In this document: piece after piece, positions 1 through 43,456 of the stretch
Numbering within the stretch: position 1 is the first letter of the stretch
How the letters are laid out: each line of letters begins with the position of its first letter
IMG/VR virus record: IMGVR_UViG_3300045988_179945
Location: 1-64,000 of that record
Length of the DNA stretch: 64,000 bases
DNA from: a virus
Direction: 5' to 3' (one strand)
The notes under the pieces: generated by a model
The model's database searches: none
Told to the model about the DNA's origin: nothing
What the model saw: the letters and a program-made list of their open reading frames with translations, nothing else
Program-made: the position numbers and the translations under genes

Positions 1-68
1 ATTGTTGTGGTGTTTCGTATAGGCGACGCCTTCGATTGAGAATCGTGGAATATTCCATATGTTTTTTC

Positions 69-443
69 CTATTTTGTTTTAGCGAGACTCGATGCATCCG
101 CACGAAAATCAACCATCGGGATACGGGAGCCAGCGGAAAGTTGACAGGCATAAGGGTCGATTGTCCTATGATGCCAGACGACTCCGCCTGTTTTAGGCCA
201 CCCCAACCGGCCTATCCCATCCAGATAGTTCAGGATGCTCATGTGTGCCATCCACCGGCACCATCCCTTTGGGCATATCGCGTCGAACATGGGAGTGTCT
301 TCCGCTTCCGGGCGGCAGGAGTGTCGTTGCCAAGAACGTAGGTACACGCGGTAGAGCGCGTAGTGGCCGTTCGTGGGAAGTTCCACGGTGTCGAACACGG
401 CGCGGGTCGGGTGGTCGTCGAATCGTATTCGTCTGCCAAGCAA
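69..443 (-). CDS. hypothetical protein (124 aa)
   Basis: ORF directly downstream of the ATP-grasp gene on the same strand; no recognisable motifs. Confidence 0.35.
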   Translation of the reverse strand: MLGRRIRFDDHPTRAVFDTVELPTNGHYALYRVYLRSWQRHSCRPEAEDTPMFDAICPKGWCRWMAHMSILNYLDGIGRLGWPKTGGVVWHHRTIDPYACQLSAGSRIPMVDFRADASSLAKTK

Positions 444-444
444 A

Positions 445-1479
445 CTATCCTCTCCTTTCTTCCTTTGGCTTCCCCTTCCGACTGGAGTCGGGGGAGGAAG
501 CCAGAACGGGCGGAACGCATTGCTCCCAGTTAAGCCTTAAAGCGATGGTCAAGTCGTTCATGTTCAATGCGAACAGTCCGGCGTTCATCATGCCGTTCAA
601 TTCGACAATGGAAACCTCATTATCAATAAGACACAGGTCGAGGACATACGCGGCGTAGCCGCAGTGTGAGAGCATGCGTCCGGCTCTTACCGCGAATTCG
701 CGATACCGTTCGACCAATTCGGGTTTGACTACGACATTATCCGTCGTACCGTCGTCACGATGCTCCTGTACTTGAGGGTCGAATCTTGTATGCATGTTGT
801 CGATAGGAGTTTTCATGCCAATATTGCCAGCGCCGCATACGGGCTGGTCGCCTACCATGAACATGCGGTATTCGTATCGGATGTCCGCATACTGTTGGAT
901 AAGCAGTGCGTTCGGGTCGTCATCCGCCATGATGAACGCCCATTCACCCCAGTCATGTACCTGCTGGACGAGCTGGTCAATGTCGGTGCCGGACAGTTTC
1001 AAGTTCGGCAGTCGTTTGCTCTGGTGCATGTATTTGACGAAGAAGTCGGATACTCCTTCGTCGATAAGGGAATCGAACGCTTGACTGACATCATCCTCGT
1101 GAACCGAACTGAGTCGTGTCTTACGGTGCATGAGCATACGCACGTTCGGATTGATGGCGTACATGTCCGCTTTGGAAGGGTCGCCAATCTGGTCGATGCT
1201 TGGCACTCTCAACACCGGTCCGAAGTGGGGGAGGCCAATCAGGTCGCGGGGGTTGACGTCATCCCTGTCGCAAATACGGACAATGGCGTCATCTCCCAGA
1301 TTGCGGGTACCCCAGTAGAGGCGGGAGCAGAGTTCAATCCAATCCTCTCGGTCTCCTCCTTCCGGTTGGACTTTGCCGACGTATTTTTCCCACGCGTGAA
1401 TGTAATAGTCGGGGATTCCGTTCAAATTGTCCGGACATTTGAACGGTGGGATGGAAATGACCCACGGTTTCCCATTCAT
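445..1479 (-). CDS. ATP-grasp domain protein
   Basis: C-terminal ATP-grasp-like signature (YEYRMFMVGDQ...VLDLCLIDNEVSIVELNGMMNAG); start overlaps the upstream small ORF by 4 nt. Confidence 0.6.
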   Translation of the reverse strand: MNGKPWVISIPPFKCPDNLNGIPDYYIHAWEKYVGKVQPEGGDREDWIELCSRLYWGTRNLGDDAIVRICDRDDVNPRDLIGLPHFGPVLRVPSIDQIGDPSKADMYAINPNVRMLMHRKTRLSSVHEDDVSQAFDSLIDEGVSDFFVKYMHQSKRLPNLKLSGTDIDQLVQQVHDWGEWAFIMADDDPNALLIQQYADIRYEYRMFMVGDQPVCGAGNIGMKTPIDNMHTRFDPQVQEHRDDGTTDNVVVKPELVERYREFAVRAGRMLSHCGYAAYVLDLCLIDNEVSIVELNGMMNAGLFALNMNDLTIALRLNWEQCVPPVLASSPDSSRKGKPKEERRG

Positions 1480-1709
1480 CTACTGACTCCTTTGGAATGC
1501 TTGTTTGCGTATGTGATTCCGGCTGTGAATGCTTCCACCGCATAGTCGTGCAGGATTTCCAACTGTTTTAGGCTGAAGCCATCCTCCAAATGAGGGGGCA
1601 GTTCCGGCAGGTTCTTTTCAATCTCCTGTTCGGAGACGGTCTGAATGTGCAAGGTTCCACTTTCGACGTTTGGTCGGCGGACTCTCCAACAGGGAAAGTC
1701 CGCCGACAT
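1476..1709 (-). CDS. small hypothetical protein (77 aa)
   Basis: ORF overlapping the ATP-grasp start (likely translationally coupled); weak RBS. Confidence 0.4.
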   Translation of the reverse strand: MSADFPCWRVRRPNVESGTLHIQTVSEQEIEKNLPELPPHLEDGFSLKQLEILHDYAVEAFTAGITYANKHSKGVSR

Positions 1710-1729
1710 ATGTTTAGACTTACAGTCTC

Positions 1730-2092
1730 TTACAATTCTTTTCTTGCCTTGTCCAAGTCTTCGACAATCGCGTCATACAGTCCGTCAACGTCCAACGATT
1801 CCAGCTTGTGCGACGGCAAATCCACGGGAGTGTATTCCCCGTCGTCGAAAACCCAATGCGCGGACGAAACCGTGTATACCCCTCCACTCCAACGGTAGGA
1901 ATGTTTGCCGTTATGTTGCGAGTCTGCCACAAGGTAGTATTCGAACATCTTGCCCATGTATGGGCATTGGAATGCGACTTCGATTCCATCCCCGAAGAGG
2001 GCGTGGGTGGCGTGCGCTCCTGTCACGTATGGGATTTCGGAGAGCTTGTCAATGAGTTTCCGGTAGGTGTCTTCGTTGATTTTCGAGTACAT
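1730..2092 (-). CDS. hypothetical protein (about 120 aa), motif-driven cassette
   Basis: ATG at 2090-2092 preceded by AAGGAAAAAGA; promoter motif copy at 2128-2149. Confidence 0.6.
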   Translation of the reverse strand: MYSKINEDTYRKLIDKLSEIPYVTGAHATHALFGDGIEVAFQCPYMGKMFEYYLVADSQHNGKHSYRWSGGVYTVSSAHWVFDDGEYTPVDLPSHKLESLDVDGLYDAIVEDLDKARKEL

Positions 2093-2127
2093 TCTTTTTC
2101 CTTGTTCTGTATGGGTCAAACCCTTGT

Positions 2128-2149
2128 TTGTGTGGACAGTTCCAGTATA
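2128..2149 (-). promoter_or_regulatory. conserved promoter/operator motif copy (variant TTGTGTGGACAGTTCCAGTATA on + strand)
   Basis: one of at least 15 copies of the TATACTGGAATTGTTCACACAA element; 35-60 nt upstream of RBS and ATG. Confidence 0.7.
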
Positions 2150-2217
2150 TCATATAAATGACAAAAACCTAAAACCAGCACACTCCCTGCGTAAAACGGC
2201 GTAAATCCTTGCCGCAG

Positions 2218-2475
2218 TCAGCAGCAGTATTCGTTGACTGTGTTGACCAGTTCGCTCATGCTCATGCCGTACACGTCGCTGTGGCGGTGGAAGATGCTTT
2301 TGGTGAAGAGCCTTTTTTGCATGATGTCGCGGGCTTCGGCGCTTTGTGCGAGTTTTACGCTTTCGGGGAATGTGCCTGTGGGGTTGTCGTTGATTTGTTT
2401 TGCGTATTCGACTGCTTGGGCTTTGGGCATTTTCTTGACGTTTATTGCGCCGCCGATGTAGTGGATTGCGTACAT
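2218..2475 (-). CDS. hypothetical protein (85 aa)
   Basis: ATG at 2473-2475 with AAGGAG 9 nt upstream; the upstream part of the annotated ORF is just the motif translated (LYWNCSHK). Confidence 0.6.
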   Translation of the reverse strand: MYAIHYIGGAINVKKMPKAQAVEYAKQINDNPTGTFPESVKLAQSAEARDIMQKRLFTKSIFHRHSDVYGMSMSELVNTVNEYCC

Positions 2476-2506
2476 GTTGTGTGCTCCTTGGTTTTCTCGA
2501 CCTTGT

Positions 2507-2528
2507 TTGTGTGAACAATTCCAATATA
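2507..2528 (-). promoter_or_regulatory. conserved promoter/operator motif copy
   Basis: TTGTGTGAACAATTCCAATATA on + strand. Confidence 0.75.
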
Positions 2529-2639
2529 ACACAAGTTGGAGTAAAGTACAACGCAAACCAAAAACGAAGACGCAATCCCCGCCCATACGAAAAAAGGAAT
2601 GCGCCCACCGGTTTCCCTGCGGGCGCATTCCCCATGCTT

Positions 2640-2948
2640 TTAGTTCAGAAGGCCGGAGCGATACAGAATCCTGCGGATATTGATATTGTGAACGAAAGCG
2701 GTGTCAGGCTGTCCAACGAAGTCGGCAAGCTGCTCGTCGGAACACGTCTCGTCAACGACGTCATCCAAAACCACCTCAGTCGGAGAGTCGAACATCCTAC
2801 AGCCAACGCCGTCATGCCCCTCAGTGTGCTCAAACAAGGCGAAGTAGGTCATGTTCTCGTCCGCAACACGCAACATGACATAGGAGGTATTGCCGTTGTG
2901 GAAGATGTTGTAGTCTGCTGCGCCGAATCGTGTGAAATATTCGTTCAT
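2640..2948 (-). CDS. hypothetical protein (102 aa)
   Basis: second ATG after the motif, GAAAGAG RBS; ORF-track start lies inside the motif translation. Confidence 0.55.
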   Translation of the reverse strand: MNEYFTRFGAADYNIFHNGNTSYVMLRVADENMTYFALFEHTEGHDGVGCRMFDSPTEVVLDDVVDETCSDEQLADFVGQPDTAFVHNINIRRILYRSGLLN

Positions 2949-2967
2949 TTTGGCTCTTTCCCTCATA

Positions 2968-2990
2968 TTTGTGTGAACAATTCCAGTATA
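2968..2990 (-). promoter_or_regulatory. conserved promoter/operator motif copy
   Basis: TTTGTGTGAACAATTCCAGTATA on + strand. Confidence 0.75.
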
Positions 2991-3078
2991 GCATATTTGA
3001 GAGAAAGAGCAAAAACACAAAAAACAAAAAGCCGCGCAAACGCAAAAAGCATCCACACGACTTGGGAATTTTTCCCCA

Positions 3079-3378
3079 CTACTGGTCGAAGTCCGACGGT
3101 TCACCATTGACGTAGTTTAAAAACTGGTCGAAGGCATATTGCGCGGTGTCCTCATAACGGCTTGGCTTCGGCTGCGCGTTCTTTTCCCGCTCTTCCTGCT
3201 CTATCAACTGGTCTATTTGGCTTTGTTCATTGCGGTGTTGCCACGCGAGAGGCTCGTTGCCTTGGGCTAGGTTCTCATACACCGTGTATTCGTGCCCGCG
3301 ATAGTTGTAAACGAGATAGACCATATGGGCGTCGTATCCGTGCCCGTGGTATTTTCTAACGAATGTCGCTTTTCGCAT
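3079..3378 (-). CDS. hypothetical protein (99 aa)
   Basis: ORF with AGAGGGG RBS; no motif of its own, probably co-transcribed with 3470-3793. Confidence 0.5.
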   Translation of the reverse strand: MRKATFVRKYHGHGYDAHMVYLVYNYRGHEYTVYENLAQGNEPLAWQHRNEQSQIDQLIEQEEREKNAQPKPSRYEDTAQYAFDQFLNYVNGEPSDFDQ

Positions 3379-3400
3379 TATTGCCCCTCTTGTGAATGGT

Positions 3401-3436
3401 GGGGCGTGTCTGTCATGGCACGCCCCTTTGCGTTTT
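3401..3436 (+). terminator. GC-rich hairpin (GGGGCGTG/CACGCCCC) followed by T-tract on + strand
   Basis: 8-bp perfect stem, 10-nt loop, then TTTGCGTTTT; lies between two minus-strand genes. Confidence 0.5.
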
Positions 3437-3469
3437 GACGGGTATTGCGCCGTGGGAAACCGTATGTTT

Positions 3470-3793
3470 TTAAGCTTCTACCAGCTCCCACCGGTCTCCA
3501 GCCTCTTCGTCGAATTCGCCTAATCGGAAACCATATGCGGCAAGCCTCCTGTCCGCCGTGGCCTCCCATTCGTCCTCGTCATCGCCGTATACATCTTCGA
3601 CCCTCTCGGCATCGGAGTAGGAGTCGGCGCGTCCCAAGTTGATAAGCCATTGGGAGGAGTCAGCCCCCATCCAGATGCCATTGCCGGTGATGGCATCGAC
3701 GATAAGAAGCGTGTCGAATGCATCGCTCCCGTAGACGGCTATCGGCTGAACAGTGACGGTCTCGTTGGTGTTGATGTCAAGTGCGGTAAACAT
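3470..3793 (-). CDS. small highly acidic hypothetical protein (108 aa)
   Basis: ATG at 3791-3793 downstream of motif; D/E-rich sequence. Confidence 0.55.
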   Translation of the reverse strand: MFTALDINTNETVTVQPIAVYGSDAFDTLLIVDAITGNGIWMGADSSQWLINLGRADSYSDAERVEDVYGDDEDEWEATADRRLAAYGFRLGEFDEEAGDRWELVEA

Positions 3794-3818
3794 TTCGGCT
3801 TTGTCTTTTCTTGTGTTT

Positions 3819-3840
3819 TTGTGTGAACAATTCCAGTATA
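3819..3840 (-). promoter_or_regulatory. conserved promoter/operator motif copy
   Basis: TTGTGTGAACAATTCCAGTATA. Confidence 0.75.
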
Positions 3841-3884
3841 CCACATGAATGAAGACATCCCCAAATAGCACACACTCCACTTGG

Positions 3885-4811
3885 TTAAATCTCGCGCTTC
3901 GCACGCTCCCAAATCTTCCGGCGAATCTCACTGTCCTCGGAGAACATCGCACCCAACTTCAACACTTGACGAACCGCCTTGCGATAATCCTCCATACGCA
4001 CACGAAGAGTCCATCGAGCTTCGCCCTTGAACGCCCGATTGATGAACGAATCCGGCATGTCTCTCATATTCTGAACCAGCTCGTAACGCTCTAGTCTGTC
4101 AGCTTCCTCCCACGCTTTCATGATGATTTCACGGGTTGCCCACCGAGGTTTAACGGCCAGCACACTGGCCACGTCTTGCGGTTCGAGTCGTTCGAACACT
4201 TCGTCCACCTCGCTGTCATCGGACAAGAGGGCAGCTTGGGCGCGAATCCCGCTGTAGGGGCTTTCCAGCCAGTGGGACAGGCACTCCTTATCGACGTCAT
4301 GGCTGCGGATGACGTTGCTGACCACGCGCTCATTTTCCTCATTGAAGAAGTTGCTGACGTCGGCTTTTTTCGCCGCGATATAACGAACCTCCCAATCCTT
4401 GTCGTGGGATAGGGCGTTCGATGTTTCCTTGTCGAGCTTGTCGTACTTGTCGAGCAGTTCCACGGCTTTCCTGCGAATCTCCGCGCTCCTGTCTCGCATG
4501 GCCACTTGGGAAAGTGCGTTGACCGGCAGGTTGTGAATATCGTATTCGCCCCAGTCGAAGTAGTAGCGTCGGAGCGTGAGCGGGAGTTCAGAAAGTTTGC
4601 CGGAGTCGAAATGCTGTCTGATGTCGGCTAGTTCCTTTTCGCCTTTTTGGGTGAGCTTCCACGAGTACCTGTCTTCGTTGCGTTGTATCAGTCCGGCGTT
4701 GGCGAGTTTGGTGAGGTTCCGGTCATCGTATGCCGCTTGGCGTTCTGGTTTGTGTTCGAAGCGGAGGAAGTCGTAGATTGAGGTTTCGTTCCAGTTGATG
4801 TTGCCGCTCAT
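3885..4811 (-). CDS. HEAT-repeat-like protein (308 aa)
   Basis: start MSGNINW with AAGGAA RBS after motif; repeated helical DWEVRYIAA / RSAEIRRKAVELL-type repeats. Confidence 0.55.
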   Translation of the reverse strand: MSGNINWNETSIYDFLRFEHKPERQAAYDDRNLTKLANAGLIQRNEDRYSWKLTQKGEKELADIRQHFDSGKLSELPLTLRRYYFDWGEYDIHNLPVNALSQVAMRDRSAEIRRKAVELLDKYDKLDKETSNALSHDKDWEVRYIAAKKADVSNFFNEENERVVSNVIRSHDVDKECLSHWLESPYSGIRAQAALLSDDSEVDEVFERLEPQDVASVLAVKPRWATREIIMKAWEEADRLERYELVQNMRDMPDSFINRAFKGEARWTLRVRMEDYRKAVRQVLKLGAMFSEDSEIRRKIWERAKREI

Positions 4812-4835
4812 TTTCGTTCCTTTTGATTTCCTGTT

Positions 4836-4857
4836 TGTGTGAACAATTCCAGCATAG
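4836..4857 (-). promoter_or_regulatory. conserved promoter/operator motif copy
   Basis: TTGTGTGAACAATTCCAGCATA. Confidence 0.75.
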
Positions 4858-4875
4858 CATAGAATTGACAAACGC

Positions 4876-5136
4876 TCAACCGCGAACCCAATCGACCAAA
4901 CGTCCGAAACCGTTAAACGGAACCAGCGAATACAACAGCCAGCCAACAAGCGCCAGCAATGCAAGCACCGCAATCGCATACACCAGCGTGCCTACGAACA
5001 AGCCAGCCAAAAACACATTCATCTGCCGTTTGCGCAGCTCCAGCAGCTCATACCATTCGCTTTCGCACCGGTCGAATGCGTCCACGTCCATGCCGGTGCC
5101 GCCGTGGGCTTGAAGCCAATCGCGTACGGTCGGCAT
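4876..5136 (-). CDS. small membrane protein (71-86 aa)
   Basis: hydrophobic TM segment FLAGLFVGTLVYAIAVLALLALVGWLL; alternative start at 5091; weak RBS. Confidence 0.4.
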   Translation of the reverse strand: MPTVRDWLQAHGGTGMDVDAFDRCESEWYELLELRKRQMNVFLAGLFVGTLVYAIAVLALLALVGWLLYSLVPFNGFGRLVDWVRG

Positions 5137-5249
5137 GGGAGGCAACGGGTCGGATATGCAAGCGTGCGGTACAAGCGCGGTTTTAAGCCCTTGCCACACG
5201 CCGTTGAAAAAGAACGCGGGAAAACGTGCGGCCTTCACCGTGCTGGGTA

Positions 5250-5969
5250 TCACTTTTCCACCTGCTGCCTTCGTCCGACAATCTTCTTGCCGCCCGCGCT
5301 CCGCAACCATGCCAAGCCATGACCATAGGAGACCATACCGGCTTCGACGGTTGGATTCTGCTGGAACGTGTAATGCACTTCCGTGAGTCCATTGCCTCCG
5401 TTTGTTTGCAGAATGCGAATCCTGTAATCCTTTTCGACTGCTTTGACCGCCATGTCCCGTTCGAGTTCGTCGAACCAGCCGTAGAGCGGGAGCATGGCGA
5501 ATGCGGTCAATGCGCCTATGGCGGTGAACCGCCAACATGTTTTGGCTCCCGCCAGCAATGCGATTGCCGCCATGAGAATTCCGATGACGGCGATTCCCGC
5601 CAATAGTTGACGCCATTTGCCGTTGCAGTCGTATTCGACGGGCGCGTACGGGTTGGCGGGGGTTGGTGTTGGAGGTGCGGTTTTGTTGGTTTTTCGTGTG
5701 GTGGGCTTGTAGGCTTTCGGAGCGTTTTTGTTTACTGTTGGGGAGGGTTTCTCGCTCGTCTTGCTGGCGGTTTCGTCGCTGTTTTCGGTGGACTCGTCCG
5801 CTGTTTTCGGTTCGAATTTCAATGGTGGTGCCGGTGGGTTCAGCAATTTTCGTTCCGTCTTCTTTACGATTTCTTGCAGTTCGATGGTGGTGGACGAGTC
5901 GGGTTCGTCCATTGGTTTCTGACCTAACATCATGAGGTCGTTTTCCAGTGAGATATTCCGTTCCTTCAT
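5250..5969 (-). CDS. membrane protein with Pro/Thr/Lys-rich linker (239 aa)
   Basis: TM helices in the C-terminal half; AAAGAAAG upstream of ATG. Confidence 0.5.
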   Translation of the reverse strand: MKERNISLENDLMMLGQKPMDEPDSSTTIELQEIVKKTERKLLNPPAPPLKFEPKTADESTENSDETASKTSEKPSPTVNKNAPKAYKPTTRKTNKTAPPTPTPANPYAPVEYDCNGKWRQLLAGIAVIGILMAAIALLAGAKTCWRFTAIGALTAFAMLPLYGWFDELERDMAVKAVEKDYRIRILQTNGGNGLTEVHYTFQQNPTVEAGMVSYGHGLAWLRSAGGKKIVGRRQQVEK

Positions 5970-6003
5970 ATTTATTTTCTTTCTTTTTGTCGGATATGAG
6001 AGA

Positions 6004-6045
6004 GGGGAGAAGTGGTCTGGATGCCACTTCTCCCCAAGTTTTTTT
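6004..6045 (+). terminator. perfect 12-bp stem hairpin (GGGGAGAAGTGG/CCACTTCTCCCC) plus T7 tract
   Basis: canonical intrinsic terminator geometry on + strand, A-tract on the other side, located between minus-strand cassettes. Confidence 0.55.
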
Positions 6046-6053
6046 AGTGTGGG

Positions 6054-6362
6054 TCAGAGGATTCGGGTTCCCTTGCGGGTGACGAGCATGATTCTGTTTT
6101 CGTGACGACTTTCGAAAACGTCCCAGTTGCCGCTCAGGACCGCCAAGCATGCGTCGCCCTTGATGAGGTTCCAACGTTCGTCGCAGTTGGATACGACGTG
6201 CTTCCAGTTGGTTGGGTTGGGCTTGCTGTGGGAGGTTTCCACGATAGCTTCGTTCATGGGCTTGTCCGCGTAGGTGTGGTCGTAGGTGTTGTCTCCGGCG
6301 ACCACGCTGATGGTGCCGTTGTCGTGGAAGATTGGCTGGTAGTAGGTTTTGGTGTCGTTCAT
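6054..6362 (-). CDS. hypothetical protein (102 aa)
   Basis: AAGGAG RBS 6 nt before ATG, motif upstream. Confidence 0.6.
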   Translation of the reverse strand: MNDTKTYYQPIFHDNGTISVVAGDNTYDHTYADKPMNEAIVETSHSKPNPTNWKHVVSNCDERWNLIKGDACLAVLSGNWDVFESRHENRIMLVTRKGTRIL

Positions 6363-6389
6363 TCGTTCTCCTTGGTTGGCTCCGCCTGT

Positions 6390-6411
6390 TTATGTGAACA
6401 TTTCCAGTATA
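6390..6411 (-). promoter_or_regulatory. conserved promoter/operator motif copy (variant TTATGTGAACATTTCCAGTATA)
   Basis: motif family. Confidence 0.7.
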
Positions 6412-6456
6412 GCATAAGTAAAGTTCCGACTCCAAAACAAGCATGGAACATACTAT

Positions 6457-6603
6457 CTACGAGTTTTCGTTCTCGTTTTCCCCGAGCGCCTGTTCAACCA
6501 ACAGTCGGATTGCATCGTTCCACGAGACTTCATATCGCTCGGCATACTGCATGGTCTGCCGGTACAGTTCGGCGGGTAACATGACCACACGGTTCACGTT
6601 AGG
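6457..6603 (-). CDS. small ribbon-helix-helix-like protein (about 49 aa)
   Basis: GGAG RBS; C-terminal VSWNDAIRLLVEQAL resembles RHH/CopG-type DNA-binding proteins. Confidence 0.4.
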   Translation of the reverse strand, partial: PNVNRVVMLPAELYRQTMQYAERYEVSWNDAIRLLVEQALGENENENS

Positions 6604-6610
6604 CATCAAG

Positions 6611-6790
6611 TCAACTCCAGAACAGGTGGGCGAGCGAATCGGCGTCGATGTACCGGCGTCGTCCGATTTTGTAGGTGCGTATGCGACCGGCATTCAGCAG
6701 GTCGTATATGTGCTGGCGTGAGCAGGAGAGGTAGGCCATCGTGTCGGCTATGGTGAGGATGGCTGGCAGTTCCTTGGCTTTGGTTCTCAT
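6611..6790 (-). CDS. excisionase/AlpA-like HTH DNA-binding protein (59 aa)
   Basis: LPAILTIADTMAYLSCSRQHIYDLLNAGRIRTYKIGRRRYI is typical of the Xis/MerR-type HTH domain. Confidence 0.5.
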   Translation of the reverse strand: MRTKAKELPAILTIADTMAYLSCSRQHIYDLLNAGRIRTYKIGRRRYIDADSLAHLFWS

Positions 6791-6807
6791 CGTCGTGCTT
6801 TCTTTCG

Positions 6808-7197
6808 TTAATACCGGCGTTCGCAACCGGAATCCAAAAACTCGTGTTCGCCGTCGCTCCACAGCACGGACACTATGGTCGAAGGGTCGTTCAGCTCGAT
6901 AAAAAACGCGGCAAGCTCGTCCACTGACAAGCGGGAGAACTCCTCGCCCACAGCCTCGTAGAATTCGTCCCAAGCGGCTTGGTCGGCGTCCGATTCCATG
7001 AGCGTGGAGAACCGTTCCGCCAGTTGCGTGGATGGGAGTGTGGCATGGGAGAAGCTTTCGTCCGTAATGTCGAGCCAAGCGTTCAAGCACCTGTCGGCCA
7101 GTTCGCCGACCGGAAAGGTCAGCGTTCTCGTGGCGGTGCCCGTCCACTTGGTTTTCTTCAGAAAACTGACTTCTACGGCCTTGGTCTTGTGTTCCAT
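6808..7197 (-). CDS. hypothetical protein (129 aa)
   Basis: AGGAG RBS, motif upstream. Confidence 0.6.
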   Translation of the reverse strand: MEHKTKAVEVSFLKKTKWTGTATRTLTFPVGELADRCLNAWLDITDESFSHATLPSTQLAERFSTLMESDADQAAWDEFYEAVGEEFSRLSVDELAAFFIELNDPSTIVSVLWSDGEHEFLDSGCERRY

Positions 7198-7228
7198 GGT
7201 CTAACTCCTATTCAATGGCTTTCTGTTT

Positions 7229-7250
7229 TTGTGTGAACAATTCCAGTATA
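7229..7250 (-). promoter_or_regulatory. conserved promoter/operator motif copy
   Basis: TTGTGTGAACAATTCCAGTATA. Confidence 0.75.
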
Positions 7251-7269
7251 TATGAATGTACGCGAACGT

Positions 7270-7311
7270 CAAACCAGCTTCCCACCAAGCGCTTTTTAAA
7301 GCATTATGGCG
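7270..7311. repeat. about 42-bp repeat copy A (CAAACCAGCTTCCCACCAAGCGCTTTTTAAAGCATTATGGCG)
   Basis: about 85% identical to 8102-8140; both lie about 20 nt beyond a promoter motif. Confidence 0.6.
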
Positions 7312-7527
7312 TCAAAGCGAACCATGTCCACGTCTCCTCTCCGAGGCGAACCGATGGGCGACCTCATCCAGCTCCTTGGGTTTCAACCCGTCCAGCACGG
7401 CGAGTGCGAACCTCACACGCTCACGGTCATCGACCGGCAACCAGATGTCGTCGGCTCCCGCGACGACGTGAATGCCCATGCCGTCGTTGTCGCTGATGTA
7501 GTCGAATCCGTTGAACTTGACGCTCAT
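7312..7527 (-). CDS. hypothetical protein (71 aa)
   Basis: GGAGGAAGT-ATG; follows 7543-8031 with a short intergenic gap. Confidence 0.5.
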   Translation of the reverse strand: MSVKFNGFDYISDNDGMGIHVVAGADDIWLPVDDRERVRFALAVLDGLKPKELDEVAHRFASERRRGHGSL

Positions 7528-7542
7528 ACTTCCTCCTTTTTC

Positions 7543-8031
7543 TCAGTCTTCCCCGTTGCCTGAACGATGCGACGTAATACGATTCCACTGTTTTGCATAC
7601 ACATCCCACACGTTTTCGGCATCAACGTTCAGCATTTCCTCGAAAGCGGCTTTGCCGACGTCGCTAAGACGGCTGATGTTGCGCAGAATATCCGCCACCT
7701 TGTCCGCTTCGTACAGTTTGTTCTGGCTGTCCTCCAATTCTTGAGATTGGGTGCTGGTGAGGTGTTGGAGATAGTTTTCGAGCAGTTCCCAGCCTTTGTC
7801 TGAGGATGAGATGTAGGCGGGTTTTGTGAGACGCCAGTCTTCGAGTATGTCTTCCCAAGGGTCGGTTTTGACGTCGTAGATTCCGGCGTCCTCTTCGTGG
7901 GGGAGGTTTTTGATTTGTTTCTGGTTGCCGTCTTCGTCCAAGTAGTCGATGGTGAGGTATTCGATTGTGTCGTTTCGGTCGAAGAGGTTGTGTGATGTGG
8001 TGATTTTGAGGCTGGTGATGGTCTTAATCAT
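7543..8031 (-). CDS. hypothetical protein (about 162 aa)
   Basis: second ATG after motif, AAGGGAA RBS. Confidence 0.55.
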   Translation of the reverse strand: MIKTITSLKITTSHNLFDRNDTIEYLTIDYLDEDGNQKQIKNLPHEEDAGIYDVKTDPWEDILEDWRLTKPAYISSSDKGWELLENYLQHLTSTQSQELEDSQNKLYEADKVADILRNISRLSDVGKAAFEEMLNVDAENVWDVYAKQWNRITSHRSGNGED

Positions 8032-8059
8032 TTTGGTTCCCTTGTTTTCCAAGCATGTT

Positions 8060-8081
8060 TTGTGTGAACAATTCCAGTATA
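8060..8081 (-). promoter_or_regulatory. conserved promoter/operator motif copy
   Basis: TTGTGTGAACAATTCCAGTATA. Confidence 0.75.
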
Positions 8082-8101
8082 ACGAGAATGTAGGGGAAAA
8101 T

Positions 8102-8140
8102 CAAATCAGCTTCCAGCCAAGCGCGATTTTAAAGCATTAT
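8102..8140. repeat. about 40-bp repeat copy B (CAAATCAGCTTCCAGCCAAGCGCGATTTTAAAGCATTAT)
   Basis: paired with 7270-7311. Confidence 0.6.
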
Positions 8141-8361
8141 ATTTATTATATTTATTACGGCGAGGTCGCGTTCAAAATGCCGTATCTCAATTGGAAGACT
8201 GTCAAGAATTAACAAGAGGGGAGACCGTGGAATCGCATGTTCCACAGCCTCCCCGTACAGGCGGACACATTTAACGCGCACGCGGCGGCGCGTTGGCTCA
8301 GACCCGCGTTCAGACGGGCGGCACTTATGGTCTCAAGGTTCGGTTCGCCCACATCCGCCTG

Positions 8362-8511
8362 TCATGCGTCGCGGAACGCGCTGAAGCCTTTGCTCAATAC
8401 CTTCGAACGTTCCGCGATGCGCCTCAAAGTTTGGTCGGCGGCCTGTCTGAACGTGAGCTTGCCGTCAAAAGCCTTGACCAGACGACGGCCTGACAGAAAA
8501 CCTAAGCCCAT
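8362..8511 (-). CDS. small hypothetical protein (49 aa)
   Basis: strong GGAAGGAG RBS 7 nt before ATG; downstream of flotillin gene. Confidence 0.3.
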   Translation of the reverse strand: MGLGFLSGRRLVKAFDGKLTFRQAADQTLRRIAERSKVLSKGFSAFRDA

Positions 8512-8582
8512 GGTTTGCTCCTTCCGATACGAAAACAGTCGGGTCGTCTCGCATCCGACGTCCCGACTGTCAGACGGTTGGA

Positions 8583-9962
8583 CTACTCGGCGTCCTGCAT
8601 GGACTTTCCGGCGGCATGTCCGGCGACCATGCTGTTCAGCAACGCTTTCAGGTCGATGCCCAAGGATTGCGACAAGCCTTCGCTCAACTGGCTCACACTG
8701 TTCACCGTGTCGCCCACGAGCTTCGTGCTGTTTCCGTCGCCGTACATGGTGATGTGGTCAACCTTGGTGAGCGGTTCGGCGGCTGCTCGAATCATGTCGG
8801 GGAGAATCTGAATGTACTGTTGGGCGAGGATGTACGTGTTGTTCATCGCATTGTAGGCTTGGCCTTGGGCGCGGATTGCCTCGGCTTCGCCGACACCCTT
8901 CGCCTGTGCGGCGGAACCCTCGGCCTTGCCTTTGACCTCGGTCGCGTGTGCGTCCGCGTCGGCTGTGGATTGGATGGCCTGAGCCTCCTGCTGGCGTAGG
9001 TACAGTTCCGCGTCGGCGTGTTTTTGGGTTGTGTACATTTGCGCGTCGGCCTGCTGTTCGGCGGCGTAACGGTCGGCGTCGGCCTTCTTGCAGATGGTCG
9101 CGTTCAGTTTTTGCTCTTCGATTTCAGCGTTCTTCTGTTCGAGCACTGCCCTCTTCTCAGCGGCGGCGATTTCAGCCTCCTGCTCCTTGACCTTAAGGGT
9201 CTTGGACTGTTCGGCGCTGGTGATGCCCTTTACCGCGTCGGCCTCGGCTTGCGCCTTGTCGGCGATGGACTGGAGTTCCGCACGCTTCAGGTCGAGCTGG
9301 TTCTGGCGGACGGCCACATCCTGTTCCGCGTTGATGGACGCGAGTTTCGCGTTTCGGCTGATTTCCGCCGCCATCTCCGCGCCCATGTTGGCGATGACGC
9401 TTTGCCGGTCGGTGAAGTCCTGAATGTTGAACGTGGTCAATTGCAGTCCGAGCCGTTCCATGTCCACACGCGCGGATTCGGCAACGGTTTCGGCAAATGT
9501 GTCCCTGTTCTCCATTAGTTCCTTCAACTCGGTCTTGCCGATGACCTCGCGAAGCTTACCTAGGAGCACCTGAGTGACGTCCTTCTCCATGCGCTCCTTG
9601 GACTGGTTGAGATAGTTCTTGGCGGCGTTCTCCAACGCTTTGACCTGTTTGCCGTTCTCGTCCACGGTCGTGGTTTCCGACGCTATCTGGAAGTTCGCCA
9701 CGGCGTTCACGTCGATGAGGATGGCGTCCTTGGTAGGAATCGCCGTATCGGTTGACAGCAGGGATTGCACCGCGCCCAAGCTCAGCCAGTCCACGCGCAT
9801 GATGAACGGGATGATGAACGCGCTTCCGCCTGAGACGAAGCGTCTTCCGCCCGGTCCGGTGATGACCATGACCTTGTTGGCGGGGCAGACCTTGTAGCTT
9901 GCGGTTGCGAGAAGTGCGACAAGTACTACCGCTACCGCGCCGATAATGAGTGTTGTCGGCAT
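8583..9962 (-). CDS. flotillin/SPFH (band-7) family protein
   Basis: N-terminal TM, SPFH-like core, long A/E/Q/K coiled-coil region typical of flotillin/YqiK. Confidence 0.8.
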   Translation of the reverse strand: MPTTLIIGAVAVVLVALLATASYKVCPANKVMVITGPGGRRFVSGGSAFIIPFIMRVDWLSLGAVQSLLSTDTAIPTKDAILIDVNAVANFQIASETTTVDENGKQVKALENAAKNYLNQSKERMEKDVTQVLLGKLREVIGKTELKELMENRDTFAETVAESARVDMERLGLQLTTFNIQDFTDRQSVIANMGAEMAAEISRNAKLASINAEQDVAVRQNQLDLKRAELQSIADKAQAEADAVKGITSAEQSKTLKVKEQEAEIAAAEKRAVLEQKNAEIEEQKLNATICKKADADRYAAEQQADAQMYTTQKHADAELYLRQQEAQAIQSTADADAHATEVKGKAEGSAAQAKGVGEAEAIRAQGQAYNAMNNTYILAQQYIQILPDMIRAAAEPLTKVDHITMYGDGNSTKLVGDTVNSVSQLSEGLSQSLGIDLKALLNSMVAGHAAGKSMQDAE

Positions 9963-9980
9963 GTTTTTCCTTTCTCTTTT

Positions 9981-10000
9981 TTGTGGGCGAACCCACTATA
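9981..10000 (-). promoter_or_regulatory. degenerate copy of the promoter motif upstream of flotillin gene
   Basis: TTGTGGGCGAACCCACTATA against the TTGTGTGAACAATTCCAGTATA consensus. Confidence 0.45.
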
Positions 10001-10013
10001 ACAAAACTCGTTT

Positions 10014-11354
10014 TCAGACTTCGGAACCGAAGTCTGCGGCCATGTCCGCGAACTTGGAGCATTCGCCCATGAACGCGAGGTTGAACGTGTCGGTCGGACC
10101 ATTGCGATGCTTGGCGAGAATCACGTCGGCCTCGCCCGGACGTTCCTCACGGTCGTAGTATTCGGGACGATGCACGAGGAACACCATGTCCGCGTCCTGT
10201 TCGATGGAGCCGGATTCACGCAGGTCGGACAGTTCCGGTCTTTTGTCGGCACGTTGTTCCGAGTTGCGGTTCAACTGGGAGAGCACGACCACGGGGCATT
10301 GCAGTTCCTTGGCGAGCATCTTGCATTGGCGGGAGAAGTTCGACACTTCCTGCTGGCGGTTCTCGACGTTCTTGCCTGAAGTCATGAGTTGCAGGTAGTC
10401 GATGACGACGAGTTTCAGCCCGTTGACCTTGCGGCTGAGAGCACGGCATTTCGCTCGGATGGTGCTCATGTTGATGATGGCGGAATCGTCAATCCACAAT
10501 GGTGCGTGTTCGACGTGACGGCAGAGGTTGTCGAGCTTGTCCCAATCGTTCCGGTTCAAGTATTCGGGGTGTTGGAAGGATGCGAGCCGGATTCCTGTTT
10601 CCGCGGCGAACATGCGTTGCATGAGTTCGTGTCCGCCCATCTCCAGACTGAATATCACGGTGGGCAGGTTGTTGTGCAGTGCGGCGTTGCGGGCGAAGTC
10701 CATGCCGAGCGTGCTTTTGCCCATGCCCGGACGTCCGGCGACAATGACCATCTGTCCGGCTTGCAGTCCATGCGTCAAAGTGTCGATGTCACGGAAGCCG
10801 GTGGGTGTTCCGAAGTTGTTCGGATGCTGTTGCATGTCGTCCAACTGTTGGAGCATTTCGTCGGACAACCGGTATGCGGTCTTCAGTTCGTCGTCTTCGT
10901 TCCGGCTTGCGTCCTCCAACTCGAACGCGGCCTCCAAGGATTTGCGGAGCACGTCTTCGGCGGAAGCGTCGGTCACGCCGCTCATCTGCTGCAATTTTTG
11001 GCCGGTTTCGCCGATACGACGCAGGATTGCCGCGTCCCTGACCTGTTTGACGAAATAGCCGCTGTTGCTTGTGGATGGTGCGGCGCTTACGAGCTGGGCT
11101 ATGTAGTCGATGCCGCCGACCTTTTCCAACTCGCCGTTGTCCATCATGTGCGAGGACAGCATTTGCGCGTCCACACGGTTGTTTTCGGCCGCCAGTTCCT
11201 TGATGTTGTGGAAGATGGTCTGATGGTTTGGCTGGTAGAAATCATGTTCGGACAATTGTCCGATGACCTTGTCCAAGGTCTCAGGGTCTTGGAGCATGGC
11301 TCCGAGCACGACCTGTTCGGGCATGTCCTTATGGATTGGAGTGGTGTCGCTCAC
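10014..11354 (-). CDS. dnaB: replicative DNA helicase DnaB
   Basis: N-terminal DnaB domain (QVVLGAMLQDPETL), Walker A AGRPGMGKSTLGMDFA, RecA-like C-terminal domain; probable GTG start with AAGGGG RBS. Confidence 0.85.
   Translation of the reverse strand: MSDTTPIHKDMPEQVVLGAMLQDPETLDKVIGQLSEHDFYQPNHQTIFHNIKELAAENNRVDAQMLSSHMMDNGELEKVGGIDYIAQLVSAAPSTSNSGYFVKQVRDAAILRRIGETGQKLQQMSGVTDASAEDVLRKSLEAAFELEDASRNEDDELKTAYRLSDEMLQQLDDMQQHPNNFGTPTGFRDIDTLTHGLQAGQMVIVAGRPGMGKSTLGMDFARNAALHNNLPTVIFSLEMGGHELMQRMFAAETGIRLASFQHPEYLNRNDWDKLDNLCRHVEHAPLWIDDSAIINMSTIRAKCRALSRKVNGLKLVVIDYLQLMTSGKNVENRQQEVSNFSRQCKMLAKELQCPVVVLSQLNRNSEQRADKRPELSDLRESGSIEQDADMVFLVHRPEYYDREERPGEADVILAKHRNGPTDTFNLAFMGECSKFADMAADFGSEV
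10015..10036 (-). terminator. perfect 10-bp palindrome CAGACTTCGG-AA-CCGAAGTCTG at dnaB stop
   Basis: hairpin overlapping dnaB stop codon, followed by a U-rich stretch on the minus strand. Confidence 0.45.
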
Positions 11355-11719: not shown

Positions 11720-11738
11720 TTCTGACGGTTCCTTTCTT

Positions 11739-14270: not shown

Positions 14271-14400
14271 TGTCTGCGTTTTTTCCTTGTCCTGTTGGCT
14301 GGTTTGTATGTGGGCGCGTCCAGCTTAACACACTATGTGGGGGTATGCAAACGGCAGCAGGTTGCGAGGTCGCGAAGTTGCGTATGGCAATACTCTTTGT

Positions 14401-14422
14401 TATACTGGAATCGTCCACAAAA
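14401..14422 (+). promoter_or_regulatory. conserved promoter/operator motif copy (plus orientation)
   Basis: TATACTGGAATCGTCCACAAAA. Confidence 0.7.
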
Positions 14423-14469
14423 AAAGGGAGCCACACACTCCCAACCACGCCAGAAAAAAAGAAGAAACC

Positions 14470-38900: not shown

Positions 38901-38932
38901 TGTTGCCGGTTTTCTAAAACAGAAGATGATGT

Positions 38933-38956
38933 TATACTGGAATTGTTCACGCAAAA
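38933..38956 (+). promoter_or_regulatory. conserved promoter/operator motif copy
   Basis: TATACTGGAATTGTTCACGCAAAA. Confidence 0.75.
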
Positions 38957-43402: not shown

Positions 43403-43432
43403 TTTGTGTTGGTGGTTTCCTAGGTTAGGAAC

Positions 43433-43456
43433 TATAATGGGATTGTTCACACAAAA
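43433..43456 (+). promoter_or_regulatory. conserved promoter/operator motif copy
   Basis: TATAATGGGATTGTTCACACAAAA. Confidence 0.7.

What the first reader, a model, noticed from the sequence alone, without database searches (positions are those of the whole stretch)
1476..8150. Minus-strand array of single-gene cassettes, each with its own copy of the motif: candidate establishment / anti-defence island
Eight consecutive cassettes are driven by the motif. They encode small unknown proteins of 85-160 aa, several strongly acidic (for example 3470-3793), a 308-aa HEAT-repeat-like protein (3885-4811), two small membrane proteins, and an Xis-like HTH plus RHH pair (6457-6790). All point the same way and most carry strong AAGGAG-type RBSs. 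Acidic DNA-mimic-sized proteins and single-gene units under a common strong promoter are typical of leading-region anti-restriction and anti-defence loci on conjugative plasmids. No product has a recognisable known function, so this may be a reservoir of new anti-defence or host-takeover proteins.
Basis: partly seen in the sequence, partly recalled or inferred. Interest (0 to 1): 0.75.

Follow-up and report, generated by a model that had tools for sequence, protein, structure and literature searches.

The report
Promoter-tagged gene array on Bifidobacterium megaplasmid
This is a run of small unknown genes on a large gut Bifidobacterium plasmid, each transcription unit headed by the plasmid family's own, already published promoter motif. 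A few links to phage early genes and an anti-restriction gene make it a plausible but unproven source of counter-defence proteins.

Summary
Eight near-identical motif copies (0 expected by chance) head minus-strand units between 1476 and 8150. Only 3 of the 8 units are single genes, and together they carry 16 genes.

The window is part of a 188-kb human-gut scaffold, a distant relative of the Bifidobacterium breve megaplasmid pMP7017 (RepA 34% identical, conserved gene order). Its nearest proteins are named from B. catenulatum and B. pseudocatenulatum.

The motif, TGnTATACTGGAATTGTTCACACAAA, is the local version of a 34-bp motif overlapping the -10 that Dineen et al. (2024) described in pMP7017. 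It reads as an extended -10 promoter with no conserved -35, followed by a conserved box at about +1. It is plasmid-wide (15 copies in this window), not specific to an island.

The proteins match no Pfam, PHROGs, NCBIfam or PADLOC family. Two confident structure models have no known fold and do not resemble ArdA or Ocr.

Support for the anti-defence reading is indirect:
- A sister plasmid carries ArdC in the same array.
- The 107-aa and 99-aa genes have homologues at the genome ends of lytic Bifidobacterium phages.
- Units are gained and lost at motif boundaries.

No oriT or relaxase is known for this family, so "leading region" cannot be tested. Verdict: a new member of a known kind, with the interpretation partly supported.

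The parts
9975..10003 (-). Weaker motif copy (TGTTATAGTGGGTTCGCCCACAAAAAA) upstream of the flotillin gene. It makes a ninth motif-headed unit next to the array.
   Evidence: Position-weight score 20.9, against a maximum of 16.2 in shuffles.
8583..9962 (-). SPFH/Band_7 (flotillin-like) gene, 459 aa. Present in L002 and L009, absent from the L007 and L008 loci.
   Evidence: Pfam Band_7 E 1.5e-18; presence/absence matrix.
8059..8084 (-). Motif copy 1. It lacks the TG extension but has a TTGATT -35 hexamer at 17 nt.
7543..8031 (-). 162-aa acidic ORFan (pI 4.5, net charge -16), conserved across this plasmid clade. The model has a 3-strand sheet plus a helical bundle and matches no known fold.
7312..7527 (-). 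71-aa ORFan, second gene of unit 1. Variable between relatives.
7228..7253 (-). Motif copy 2. It lacks the TG extension but has a TTGACG -35 hexamer at 16 nt.
6808..7197 (-). 129-aa acidic ORFan (pI 4.4, net charge -14), conserved across the clade.
6611..6790 (-). 59-aa HTH_17 (Xis/MerR-like) DNA-binding protein, in unit 2.
   Evidence: Pfam HTH_17 E 5e-12. Absent from the L007 and L008 loci.
6457..6606 (-). 49-aa weak ribbon-helix-helix protein, in unit 2. A candidate autoregulator, untested.
   Evidence: Pfam RHH_5 E 0.01, below the family cutoff. Absent from the L007 and L008 loci.
6389..6414 (-). Motif copy 3.
6054..6362 (-). 102-aa ORFan, conserved across the clade.
5250..5969 (-). 239-aa protein with a Pro/Thr/Lys-rich N-terminal part and two hydrophobic segments (membrane protein).
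   Evidence: Sequence; no family match.
4876..5136 (-). 86-aa small membrane protein. A 39% identical homologue in pMP7017 lies within the gene just downstream of the Lar-family gene.
4834..4859 (-). Motif copy 4.
3885..4811 (-). 308-aa protein with a weak N-terminal winged-helix signal and HEAT-like repeats. It is one of only three array proteins still detectable in pMP7017 (24% identity), is motif-headed in both plasmids, and has a paralogue in the L007 array.
3818..3843 (-). Motif copy 5.
3470..3793 (-). 107-aa strongly acidic protein (pI 4.05, net charge -19). The model is beta-rich and matches no known fold. Homologues at 47-48% identity are the terminal gene of lytic B. dentium phages BD811P1-3. 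The gene is frameshifted in L009.
3079..3378 (-). 99-aa protein in the same unit. It is 79% identical to gp26, the first gene at the right end of B. pseudocatenulatum phage BP1.
3029..3063 (-). Hairpin plus T-rich tract that closes unit 5 just upstream of motif copy 6.
2968..2993 (-). Motif copy 6.
2640..2948 (-). 102-aa acidic ORFan (pI 4.4). At this position L007 carries a 321-aa HEAT-like paralogue instead.
2590..2633 (-). Canonical intrinsic terminator (18-bp GC-rich stem followed by TTTTTT) that closes unit 6.
2506..2531 (-). Motif copy 7.
2218..2475 (-). 85-aa ORFan, conserved across the clade. In L009 it is followed by ArdC in the same unit. It has a distant full-length homologue on a phage-sized contig.
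2127..2152 (-). Motif copy 8.
1730..2092 (-). 120-aa acidic ORFan, conserved across the clade.
1476..1709 (-). 77-aa ORF, poor ribosome-binding site, variable between relatives.
445..1479 (-). 344-aa ATP-grasp-like protein (R2K clade, below the family cutoff). 35% identical to an annotated ATP-grasp protein of pMP7017.
14398..14423 (+). Motif copy outside the array, at the strand-switch region. It heads the plus-strand block.
38930..38955 (+). Motif copy outside the array.
43430..43455 (+). Motif copy outside the array (TATAAT variant).
53279..53304 (+). Motif copy outside the array.
54173..54198 (+). Motif copy outside the array. No obvious long ORF follows it.

Best explanation
The region is part of a long one-directional block of small accessory genes. 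It lies on a roughly 188-kb Bifidobacterium megaplasmid, probably of the B. catenulatum/pseudocatenulatum group, that is distantly related to pMP7017.

**Promoter.** Each transcription unit starts with the family-specific promoter element TGnTATACTGG-N4-GTYCACAYAAA. I read this as an extended -10 promoter for the host sigma-A polymerase. It needs no -35 element and is fused to a conserved box at about +1 to +11. That box is most likely the binding site of a plasmid-encoded regulator, and less likely a conserved mRNA 5' leader. The promoter is used all over the plasmid, so it ties many units into one co-regulated set.

**Array.** The 25-90 bp of shared terminator and promoter sequence also mark the boundaries at which whole units are gained, lost or replaced between related plasmids. 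The genes themselves are fast-evolving ORFans under purifying selection. Some are shared with Bifidobacterium phages, where they occupy early or terminal positions. In a sister plasmid one unit holds the anti-restriction gene ardC. The most likely role of at least part of the array is therefore plasmid establishment or counter-defence.

**Status of each step.** Shown: the motif, its distribution, the synteny, the modularity and the phage links. Inferred: the transcription start site, the operator function and the counter-defence function.
For: **Plasmid identity**
- RepA_C, ParA and DnaB genes are present.
- The best RepA matches are the pMP7017-family megaplasmids, at 34% identity.
- The gene order dnaB, small genes, 308-aa gene, 3'-5' exonuclease is conserved.
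- The host is named by 85-89% identical proteins from B. catenulatum and B. pseudocatenulatum, on 175-225 kb contigs.

**Motif**
- 13 copies against 0 expected, plus 2 weaker ones.
- The +1 box never occurs without the -10 half.
- pMP7017 carries the cognate ATGYTATACTGAATATGTCCACATAAAA, published as a 34-bp motif overlapping the -10. The paper reports 19 copies, 56 genes predicted to be driven by it and six highly expressed genes, and proposes it as a transcription-factor site (PMC10832533).
- There is no conserved -35. Information peaks at TG, TATACTG and GTnCACAnAA.
- The two array copies without TG have the best -35 hexamers.
- The predicted leaders are unstructured.
- The motif is present in every locus from 12 further contigs of 104-217 kb, bar one 104.9-kb contig, and absent from all loci on 17-62 kb phage-sized contigs that carry the same genes.

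**Modularity**
- Breakpoints between the window and L007, L008 and L009 fall at the 3' edge of the motif or in the terminator just upstream.
- A presence/absence matrix shows conserved and variable units.

**Function hints**
- ArdC sits in the L009 array.
- ssb, DUF2786 and the 3'-5' exonuclease are motif-headed in pMP7017, and its published list of motif-regulated genes includes a methyltransferase.
- The 107-aa and 99-aa proteins have phage homologues.
- dN/dS is 0.09-0.48.
Against: - No window protein matches any anti-defence, defence or phage family.
- The motif also precedes housekeeping-type plasmid genes, so it does not mark a functional class.
- In pMP7017 six motif-bearing genes are highly expressed at steady state (PMC10832533). 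This argues against tight repression in established cells.
- The candidate regulators in the array (HTH_17 and RHH) are missing from the 20-kb loci of L007 and L008, which still carry the motif.
- The trend for -35 hexamers to compensate for a missing TG is not significant across all copies (p = 0.10).
- The transcription start site is not mapped for this plasmid.
Confidence: 0.6

Rival explanations
1. This is a classical leading-region anti-defence island. The array is the first DNA to enter the recipient next to oriT, and it is transcribed early, possibly from single-stranded DNA, to block recipient defences.
For: - Uniform gene orientation, small acidic ORFans and strong ribosome-binding sites.
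- ArdC, which binds single-stranded DNA, in the sister array.
- ssb under the same motif in pMP7017.
- A PrgA-like protein in pMP7017 suggests a Gram-positive type IV secretion system that transfers single-stranded DNA.
- The 500-nt spacer upstream of the array folds more stably than shuffles, z = -2.9.
Against: - No oriT or relaxase was found in the window's large ORFs or in 10 pMP7017 candidates, and none is reported in the two pMP7017 papers read. PLSDB types pMP7017 as non-mobilizable.
- The intergenic spacers are 19-111 nt with a plain extended -10, and the leaders are unstructured. They are not Frpo-like elements, which depend on a folded secondary structure that mimics double-stranded DNA (PMC11541004).
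- The motif is plasmid-wide.
- pMP7017 genes carrying the motif are expressed at steady state.
Confidence: 0.2
2. This is a backbone or DNA-metabolism module. The small genes are accessory factors of plasmid replication, repair or maintenance, co-expressed with dnaB, the 3'-5' exonuclease, RNA ligase and ATP-grasp genes that flank them. They have no role against host defences.
For: - The array starts directly after the dnaB operon and runs into an RNase_T-type exonuclease.
- Seven units are conserved across the clade.
- All are under purifying selection.
- phi29-like phage early operons, where the 99-aa homologue sits, are replication operons.
Against: - There is high turnover of the other units, a frameshifted 107-aa gene in L009 and an ArdC insertion.
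- Only 3 of 17 proteins are still detectable in pMP7017, although the backbone synteny is kept.
- None of the small proteins has a DNA-metabolism domain.
Confidence: 0.15
3. The conserved downstream half of the motif works at the RNA level. All these mRNAs would start with 5'-GUYCACAYAAA, a shared leader that a plasmid or host factor recognises for stability or translation, rather than a DNA operator. This is not exclusive of the best explanation.
For: - The box begins at the position expected for +1 and is separated from the -10 by a less conserved 5-6 nt.
- It is not a good palindrome.
- It never occurs apart from the promoter.
- The leaders are A-rich and unstructured.
Against: - No RNA structure or Rfam family is found.
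- The transcription start site is inferred, not measured.
- Operators that overlap +1 are common.
- The invariant C in TATACT suggests sequence-specific DNA recognition beyond sigma.
Confidence: 0.15
4. The repeats are copies of a mobile or recombination element (a MITE, or integron-like attC sites), not promoters.
For: The copies are repeated and lie at the boundaries of variable units. An Xis-like HTH_17 protein sits in the array.
Against: - There are no terminal inverted repeats, no hairpin and no integrase or recombinase nearby.
- Every copy is oriented toward, and 15-45 nt from, a start codon.
- The cognate motif in pMP7017 coincides with mapped promoters.
Confidence: 0.02

Closest known systems
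The pMP7017-specific promoter motif and the genes it heads (Dineen et al. 2024, Microb Biotechnol, PMC10832533)
   Same: - Same plasmid family by RepA, DnaB and gene order.
- Same motif core (TGnTATACTG...GTYCACAYAAA) overlapping the -10.
- Many copies within 60 nt of start codons.
- It heads runs of small unknown genes, the 308-aa homologue and the exonuclease.
- The paper already noted that the motif occurs in pMP7017 homologues and not in chromosomes.
   Different: - The clade and host group differ (B. catenulatum/pseudocatenulatum rather than B. longum/breve), and this clade is not in PLSDB.
- The motif differs at about 6 of 26 positions (GGAATTGTTCACAC against GAATATGTCCACAT).
- Only 3 of 17 array proteins are detectably shared.
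- There is no CRISPR-Cas insertion here.
- There are no expression data for this plasmid.
Repressor-controlled establishment genes of p576 in the pLS20 family (EGeRS2 sequences with the Reg576 repressor; Val-Calvo et al. 2021, PMC8708921)
   Same: - Several operons of variable, mostly unknown establishment genes, including ardC, are each headed by the same strong promoter plus operator.
- A small RHH repressor is encoded behind one of those promoters.
- The proposed logic is a burst of expression on entry, followed by repression.
   Different: - The operator there is a dual heptamer flanking the -35, whereas here the conserved box lies at +1.
- No repressor is identified here, and the RHH/HTH pair is not universal among relatives.
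- The motif here also heads non-establishment genes.
- Steady-state expression is reported in pMP7017.
Leading-region anti-defence islands (Samuel et al. 2024, Nature, PMC11541004)
   Same: Co-oriented small genes, a mix of ORFans with anti-restriction, SSB and methyltransferase genes across relatives, and genes shared with phages.
   Different: The oriT is unknown, there is no Frpo-type single-strand promoter, and no recognised anti-defence gene lies in the window itself.
Phage morons and early host-takeover modules, such as the SPO1 host-takeover module and phi29 early genes (from my own knowledge)
   Same: Many short units with strong sigma-A promoters and strong ribosome-binding sites encode small acidic proteins. 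Two of the genes have homologues in phi29-like Bifidobacterium phages at early or terminal positions.
   Different: The element is a plasmid, and the promoter box is plasmid-specific and absent from the phages.

Membership tests
pMP7017-type megaplasmid promoter motif | A conserved motif overlapping the -10 (AWAYATGY TATACT GAATATGTCCACATAAAAWA) | tested here: met
   The window consensus is tG.TATACTGGaAttGTtCACAcAAa. It shares TGnTATACTG, GTnCACA and AAA with the pMP7017 copies.
pMP7017-type megaplasmid promoter motif | Many copies directly upstream of start codons across the plasmid | tested here: met
   15 copies in 64 kb. All but the copy at 54173-54198 lie just upstream of an evident start codon and point toward it.
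pMP7017-type megaplasmid promoter motif | The host element is a pMP7017-related megaplasmid | tested here: met
   RepA is 34% identical to pMP7017-family RepA. The order dnaB, array, exonuclease is conserved, and further genes resemble pMP7017's by annotation and size. The scaffold is 188 kb.
pMP7017-type megaplasmid promoter motif | Absent from chromosomes | tested here: met
   The exact 19-mer has one unrelated match in 185,579 representative genomes. It is present in every locus from 12 further contigs of 104-217 kb, bar one 104.9-kb contig, and in none of the loci on phage-sized contigs.
pMP7017-type megaplasmid promoter motif | Transcriptionally active promoters (RNA-seq) | not testable with these tools
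   Known only for pMP7017 (PMC10832533).
Leading-region anti-defence island | Lies next to oriT on the leading side | not testable with these tools
   No relaxase domain was found in the window's large ORFs or in 10 pMP7017 candidates. None is reported in the literature read.
Leading-region anti-defence island | Contains recognised anti-defence, SSB or methyltransferase genes | tested here: not met
   None in the window array by Pfam, PHROGs or NCBIfam. It is met only in relatives: ArdC in L009, ssb in pMP7017, and a methyltransferase in the published pMP7017 list of motif-regulated genes.
Leading-region anti-defence island | Frpo/ssi-type structured single-strand promoters | tested here: not met
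   The spacers inside the array are 19-111 nt with a plain extended -10, and the leaders are unstructured. Only the 500-nt spacer upstream of the array is unusually structured, z = -2.9, and that was not examined further.
Repressor-controlled establishment genes (p576 type) | A shared strong promoter plus operator before several variable operons | tested here: met
Repressor-controlled establishment genes (p576 type) | An autoregulated repressor encoded behind one of the promoters | tested here: inconclusive
   The HTH_17 and weak RHH pair sits behind motif copy 2 but is absent from the L007 and L008 loci. The 308-aa winged-helix/HEAT protein is universal and motif-headed, but DNA binding is only weakly indicated.
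Repressor-controlled establishment genes (p576 type) | Transient expression after transfer | not testable with these tools
   Steady-state expression of six motif-bearing genes in pMP7017 argues against tight repression.
ArdA/Ocr-type DNA-mimic proteins | Strong negative surface charge | tested here: met
   The 107-aa protein has net charge -19, the 162-aa protein -16 and the 129-aa protein -14.
ArdA/Ocr-type DNA-mimic proteins | Sequence or fold similarity to ArdA, Ocr or another solved mimic | tested here: not met
Integron-type gene cassettes | attC hairpin sites and an integrase | tested here: not met
   The repeats are unstructured promoters and no integrase is nearby.

The most novel reading that the evidence does not exclude
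The +1 box is the operator of a plasmid-encoded global regulator, so the nine or more units fire together when the plasmid enters a naive cell. Several of the ORFans would then be new counter-defence or host-takeover proteins with previously unseen folds. The first candidates are the 107-aa and 99-aa pair shared with phi29-like and other Bifidobacterium phages, and the conserved acidic 162-aa and 129-aa proteins. In this reading the plasmid captures such genes from phages and re-fits them with its own promoter by recombination at the motif.
Probability: 0.3. Interest if true: 0.7.

Novelty: new member of a known kind. Interest (0 to 1): 0.42.

Why it matters
Restriction-modification and other defences are the main obstacle to genetic work in bifidobacteria (my own knowledge; PMC10696588 lists DNA defence mechanisms among the main hurdles). 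A natural, widely distributed megaplasmid family that carries a modular set of strongly expressed small proteins is a concrete shortlist for finding anti-restriction or anti-defence tools that work in this genus. Some of those proteins are shared with lytic Bifidobacterium phages, and a sister plasmid carries ArdC in the same array.

The compact, -35-independent promoter could also serve as an expression part. Its box is specific to these plasmids and conserved across two deeply diverged plasmid clades.

The study also shows that the pMP7017 motif extends to a second megaplasmid clade, in adult-type bifidobacteria, that I did not find described in the literature searched.

Tried and rejected
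**Sequence similarity**
- Near-identity DNA searches of 1-12000 against PLSDB and phage genomes found nothing relevant.
- A concatenated protein query against PLSDB found only one pMP7017 hit.

**Family searches**
- Pfam, PHROGs, NCBIfam and PADLOC gave no family for any small protein except HTH_17.

**Structure**
- Sequence search of the PDB for the 603-aa and 886-aa neighbours found nothing.
- The AFDB50 library was not available.

**Relaxase and oriT**
- No relaxase domain was found in the window or in 10 large pMP7017 proteins of unknown function.
- The 2015 pMP7017 paper is not held in the library.

**RNA**
- An RNA-structure role for the motif was rejected: the leaders are unstructured and there is no Rfam match.

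**Promoter tests**
- The phage promoters of BP1 and BD811P1 share only a generic extended -10, not the box.
- Compensation between TG and the -35 hexamer across all copies goes in the expected direction but is not significant, p = 0.10.

**Chance matches**
- The single genome hit to the 19-mer, in an Aggregatilineales MAG (L001), is an isolated copy and is treated as chance.
- A -10 half without the box at 43028-43038 is the promoter of an IS200/IS605 tnpA gene, not a motif copy.

Full report
**Observation.** On the sense (minus) strand the repeated element reads TGnTATACTGGAATTGTTCACACAAA. The 19-nt core, allowing up to 3 mismatches, occurs 13 times in the 64-kb window against 0.00 expected in dinucleotide shuffles. 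Eight copies (plus-strand coordinates 2131-8081) all point toward minus-strand genes. Five more point toward plus-strand sequence at 14401, 38933, 43433, 53282 and 54176, four of them directly before an evident gene. A position-weight scan adds two weaker copies: 10000(-) before the flotillin gene and 55388(-). They score 20.9 and 24.7, against a maximum of 16.2 in shuffles. Each copy ends 15-45 nt before an ATG that has an AGGAG-like ribosome-binding site.

The eight copies in the finding head 16 genes. Three units are single genes (308, 102 and 85 aa), and the others hold two, three or more. Clear hairpin plus T-run terminators close only some units, for example at 2590-2633 and 3029-3063. 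The ORFs are real genes, with dN/dS of 0.09-0.48 against orthologues. The array is longer than the stated coordinates. It starts right after dnaB and the flotillin gene and continues beyond the left edge of the window.

**What the element is.**
- The window carries RepA_C, ParA, DnaB, two TnpB genes and mostly unknown proteins.
- The 308-aa protein is encoded, with identical sequence, on a 188,194-bp human-gut metagenome scaffold and on shorter contigs.
- The best RepA matches, at 34% identity, are the 169-198 kb Bifidobacterium megaplasmids of the pMP7017 family.
- The 308-aa protein has a 24% identical homologue in pMP7017.
- The order dnaB, small co-oriented genes, 308-aa gene, 3'-5' exonuclease is conserved. 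On the other side of the strand switch, several further genes resemble pMP7017's by annotation and size; this was not tested by comparison.
- Homologues at 85-89% identity are named from B. catenulatum and B. pseudocatenulatum and sit on 175-225 kb contigs.
- This clade is absent from PLSDB, and I found no paper describing it.

**The motif is already known in the family.** pMP7017 carries the cognate ATGYTATACTGAATATGTCCACATAAAA, with 27 loose copies in my scan. Dineen et al. 2024 (PMC10832533) described it as a 34-bp motif overlapping the -10. They reported 19 copies, predicted to drive 56 genes (24% of coding capacity), first noticed in six highly expressed genes. They proposed it as a transcription-factor binding site and noted that it is present in pMP7017 homologues and absent from chromosomes. 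Their list of motif-regulated genes includes type I-E CRISPR-Cas genes, an N6/N4 methyltransferase with SSB, and the exonuclease. My scan also places copies before ssb and DUF2786, with looser matches upstream of the ParA and DUF1524 genes. The motif is therefore a plasmid-wide promoter type, not the mark of one island.

**Anatomy and likely mechanism.**
- Across 59 copies in this clade and 27 in pMP7017 there is no conserved -35.
- Information peaks at TG (extended -10), at TATACTG and at GTnCACAnAA. A less conserved 5-6 nt lies between them.
- The two array copies that lack TG have the best -35 hexamers, TTGACG and TTGATT. Across all copies this trend is not significant (p = 0.10).
- With the usual spacing, transcription would start at about the G of GTYCACA, so the conserved box covers about +1 to +11. 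This is inference.
- The box never occurs without the promoter half.
- The predicted leaders are A-rich and unstructured, and no Rfam family matches.

I conclude that the motif is a -35-independent sigma-A promoter plus a box at +1. The box is either an operator, which I favour in line with the published proposal, or a shared mRNA leader.

Candidate regulators are two. One is the HTH_17 plus weak RHH pair behind copy 2, which is missing from the L007 and L008 loci. The other is the universal, motif-headed 308-aa protein, which combines a weak winged-helix signal with HEAT-like repeats. Neither is established.

**Modularity.** I compared the window with three relatives whose 308-aa protein is 81%, 66% and 60% identical (L009, L007, L008).
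- Conserved units are the 162, 129, 102, 239, 308, 85 and 120 aa genes.
- Variable ones are the flotillin, 71, HTH_17, RHH, 86, 107, 99, 102 and 77+344 aa genes.
- Breakpoints fall at the 3' edge of the motif or in the terminator just upstream. L009 has an extra unit (motif plus a 75-aa gene) bounded by duplicated promoter sequence. L007 replaces the 102-aa gene with a 321-aa paralogue of the 308-aa gene exactly after the motif. L008 lacks three units between two motif copies.
- The shared promoter region therefore also acts as the seam for exchanging units, most simply by homologous recombination. This is inference.

**Evidence bearing on the anti-defence reading.**

For:
- L009 carries a 284-aa ArdC-like protein (ArdcN 48.2 bits, Peptidase_M78 35.8 bits) inserted behind the 85-aa gene, inside a motif-headed unit.
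- L007 and L008 carry a DUF2786/DUF7168 unit.
- The 107-aa acidic protein belongs to a small family, with only 76 representatives among 1.84 billion clusters. Its members at 47-48% identity form the lone terminal gene of the 17.6-kb lytic phi29-like B. dentium phages BD811P1-3.
- Its neighbour in the same unit, the 99-aa protein, is 79% identical to gp26. That is the first gene at the right end of B. pseudocatenulatum phage BP1, at the head of the run of genes that continues into SSB and DNA polymerase.
- On three IMG/VR contigs of 24-53 kb the two genes lie side by side. The 85-aa family has a distant full-length homologue on one of these, a 38.9-kb contig.
- The plasmid motif is present in every locus from 12 further contigs of 104-217 kb, bar one 104.9-kb contig. 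It is absent from all loci on phage-sized contigs. The shared genes therefore carry the plasmid's own promoter only when they sit on the plasmid.

Against:
- No array protein matches Pfam, PHROGs, NCBIfam or PADLOC families.
- Six motif-bearing genes in pMP7017 are highly expressed at steady state.
- The spacers inside the array are too short and too plain to be Frpo-like single-strand promoters.
- No relaxase or oriT is known or detectable, so proximity to oriT cannot be judged.

**Comparison with known systems.** The finding is a member of the pMP7017 motif family; every testable defining feature was met. It works most like the repressor-controlled establishment genes of p576 in the pLS20 family. 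There, several variable operons including ardC share one strong promoter plus operator, and a small RHH repressor is encoded behind one of them (PMC8708921). Here, however, the repressor and the transient expression are unproven. It resembles leading-region anti-defence islands (PMC11541004) in gene character only. The defining features of that class are either untestable (oriT) or not met (recognised anti-defence genes in the window, Frpo).

**Verdict.** The motif is already published for the sister clade. The anti-defence or establishment reading is plausible and gains some new indirect support: ArdC in a sister array, homologues of two genes at phage genome ends, and turnover of whole units at the motif. 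It remains unproven. I classify the finding as a new member of a known kind and score its interest as moderate. The practical value would be a shortlist of anti-defence candidates and a compact promoter for bifidobacterial genetics.

Noticed in passing
window 55961-64000 (+): An open reading frame of at least 2679 codons runs off the right end of the window. It has no Pfam match at E <= 0.01 and has a strong RBS-scored start. The ORF listing omits it because it is open-ended. It may be a giant surface protein like those annotated on pMP7017, but that is not established.
   Followed up: partly
window 33229-34581 (+), 34497-34565 (+), 41412-42626 (-), 42630-43000 (-): There are two IS200/IS605-type TnpB genes. 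The first has an Rfam 'Transposase-2 RNA' match (84 bits) at its 3' end. The second lies next to an IS200-type tnpA gene whose promoter is a generic TGCTATACT extended -10 without the plasmid box.
   Followed up: partly
window 50181-51948 (+): A 286-aa zinc-ribbon protein with a weak Lar (restriction alleviation) hit, below the family cutoff, is followed by an ADP-ribosylglycohydrolase (E 5e-57). pMP7017 has an annotated Lar homologue. This pair may be a more direct anti-defence candidate than the array.
   Followed up: no
window 37653-38678 (+): A GmrSD_C/DUF1524-type nuclease domain protein (E 7e-5), which may be a plasmid-borne type IV restriction enzyme. pMP7017 has an annotated DUF1524-domain protein with a loose motif match upstream.
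   Followed up: no
window 8085-8582 (-): The 500-nt spacer between the flotillin gene and the first unit folds more stably than shuffles (DNA, z = -2.9). It holds two terminator-like hairpins, an AT-rich tract and two small ORFs (8362-8511 and 8209-8352). The second ORF has an XRE-like helix-turn-helix signature. A role as a regulator or single-strand element is not excluded.
   Followed up: partly
window 7255-7310 and 8085-8140 (-): The two motif copies that lack the TG extension share about 80 nt of extra upstream homology (ATAATGCTTTAAAA.GCGCTTGG.GGGAAGCTG.TTTGA), which includes their -35 hexamers. They form a promoter sub-family.
   Followed up: no
IMG/VR loci L016-L020 and L049-L073: IMG/VR lists many contigs of 100-217 kb from this megaplasmid family as viral genomes. 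They carry the motif array and are plasmids, not phages.
   Followed up: partly
L015 (phage BP1, PQ571273.1) about 235-300: The left end of the deposited BP1 genome contains an Illumina adapter sequence (ACACTCTTTCCCTACACGACGCTCTTCCGATCT). This suggests an assembly artefact in that record.
   Followed up: no
window 54173-54260 (+): A perfect motif copy with a good ribosome-binding site (AAAGGAG) is followed only by a TTG and no long ORF. It faces the 3' end of the minus-strand 357-aa gene. It could drive a small RNA, an antisense transcript or a very short ORF.
   Followed up: no
L009 11062-11386: In the sister plasmid the 107-aa acidic gene is split into 44-aa and 66-aa ORFs, an apparent frameshift, while its 99-aa neighbour is intact.
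   Followed up: partly
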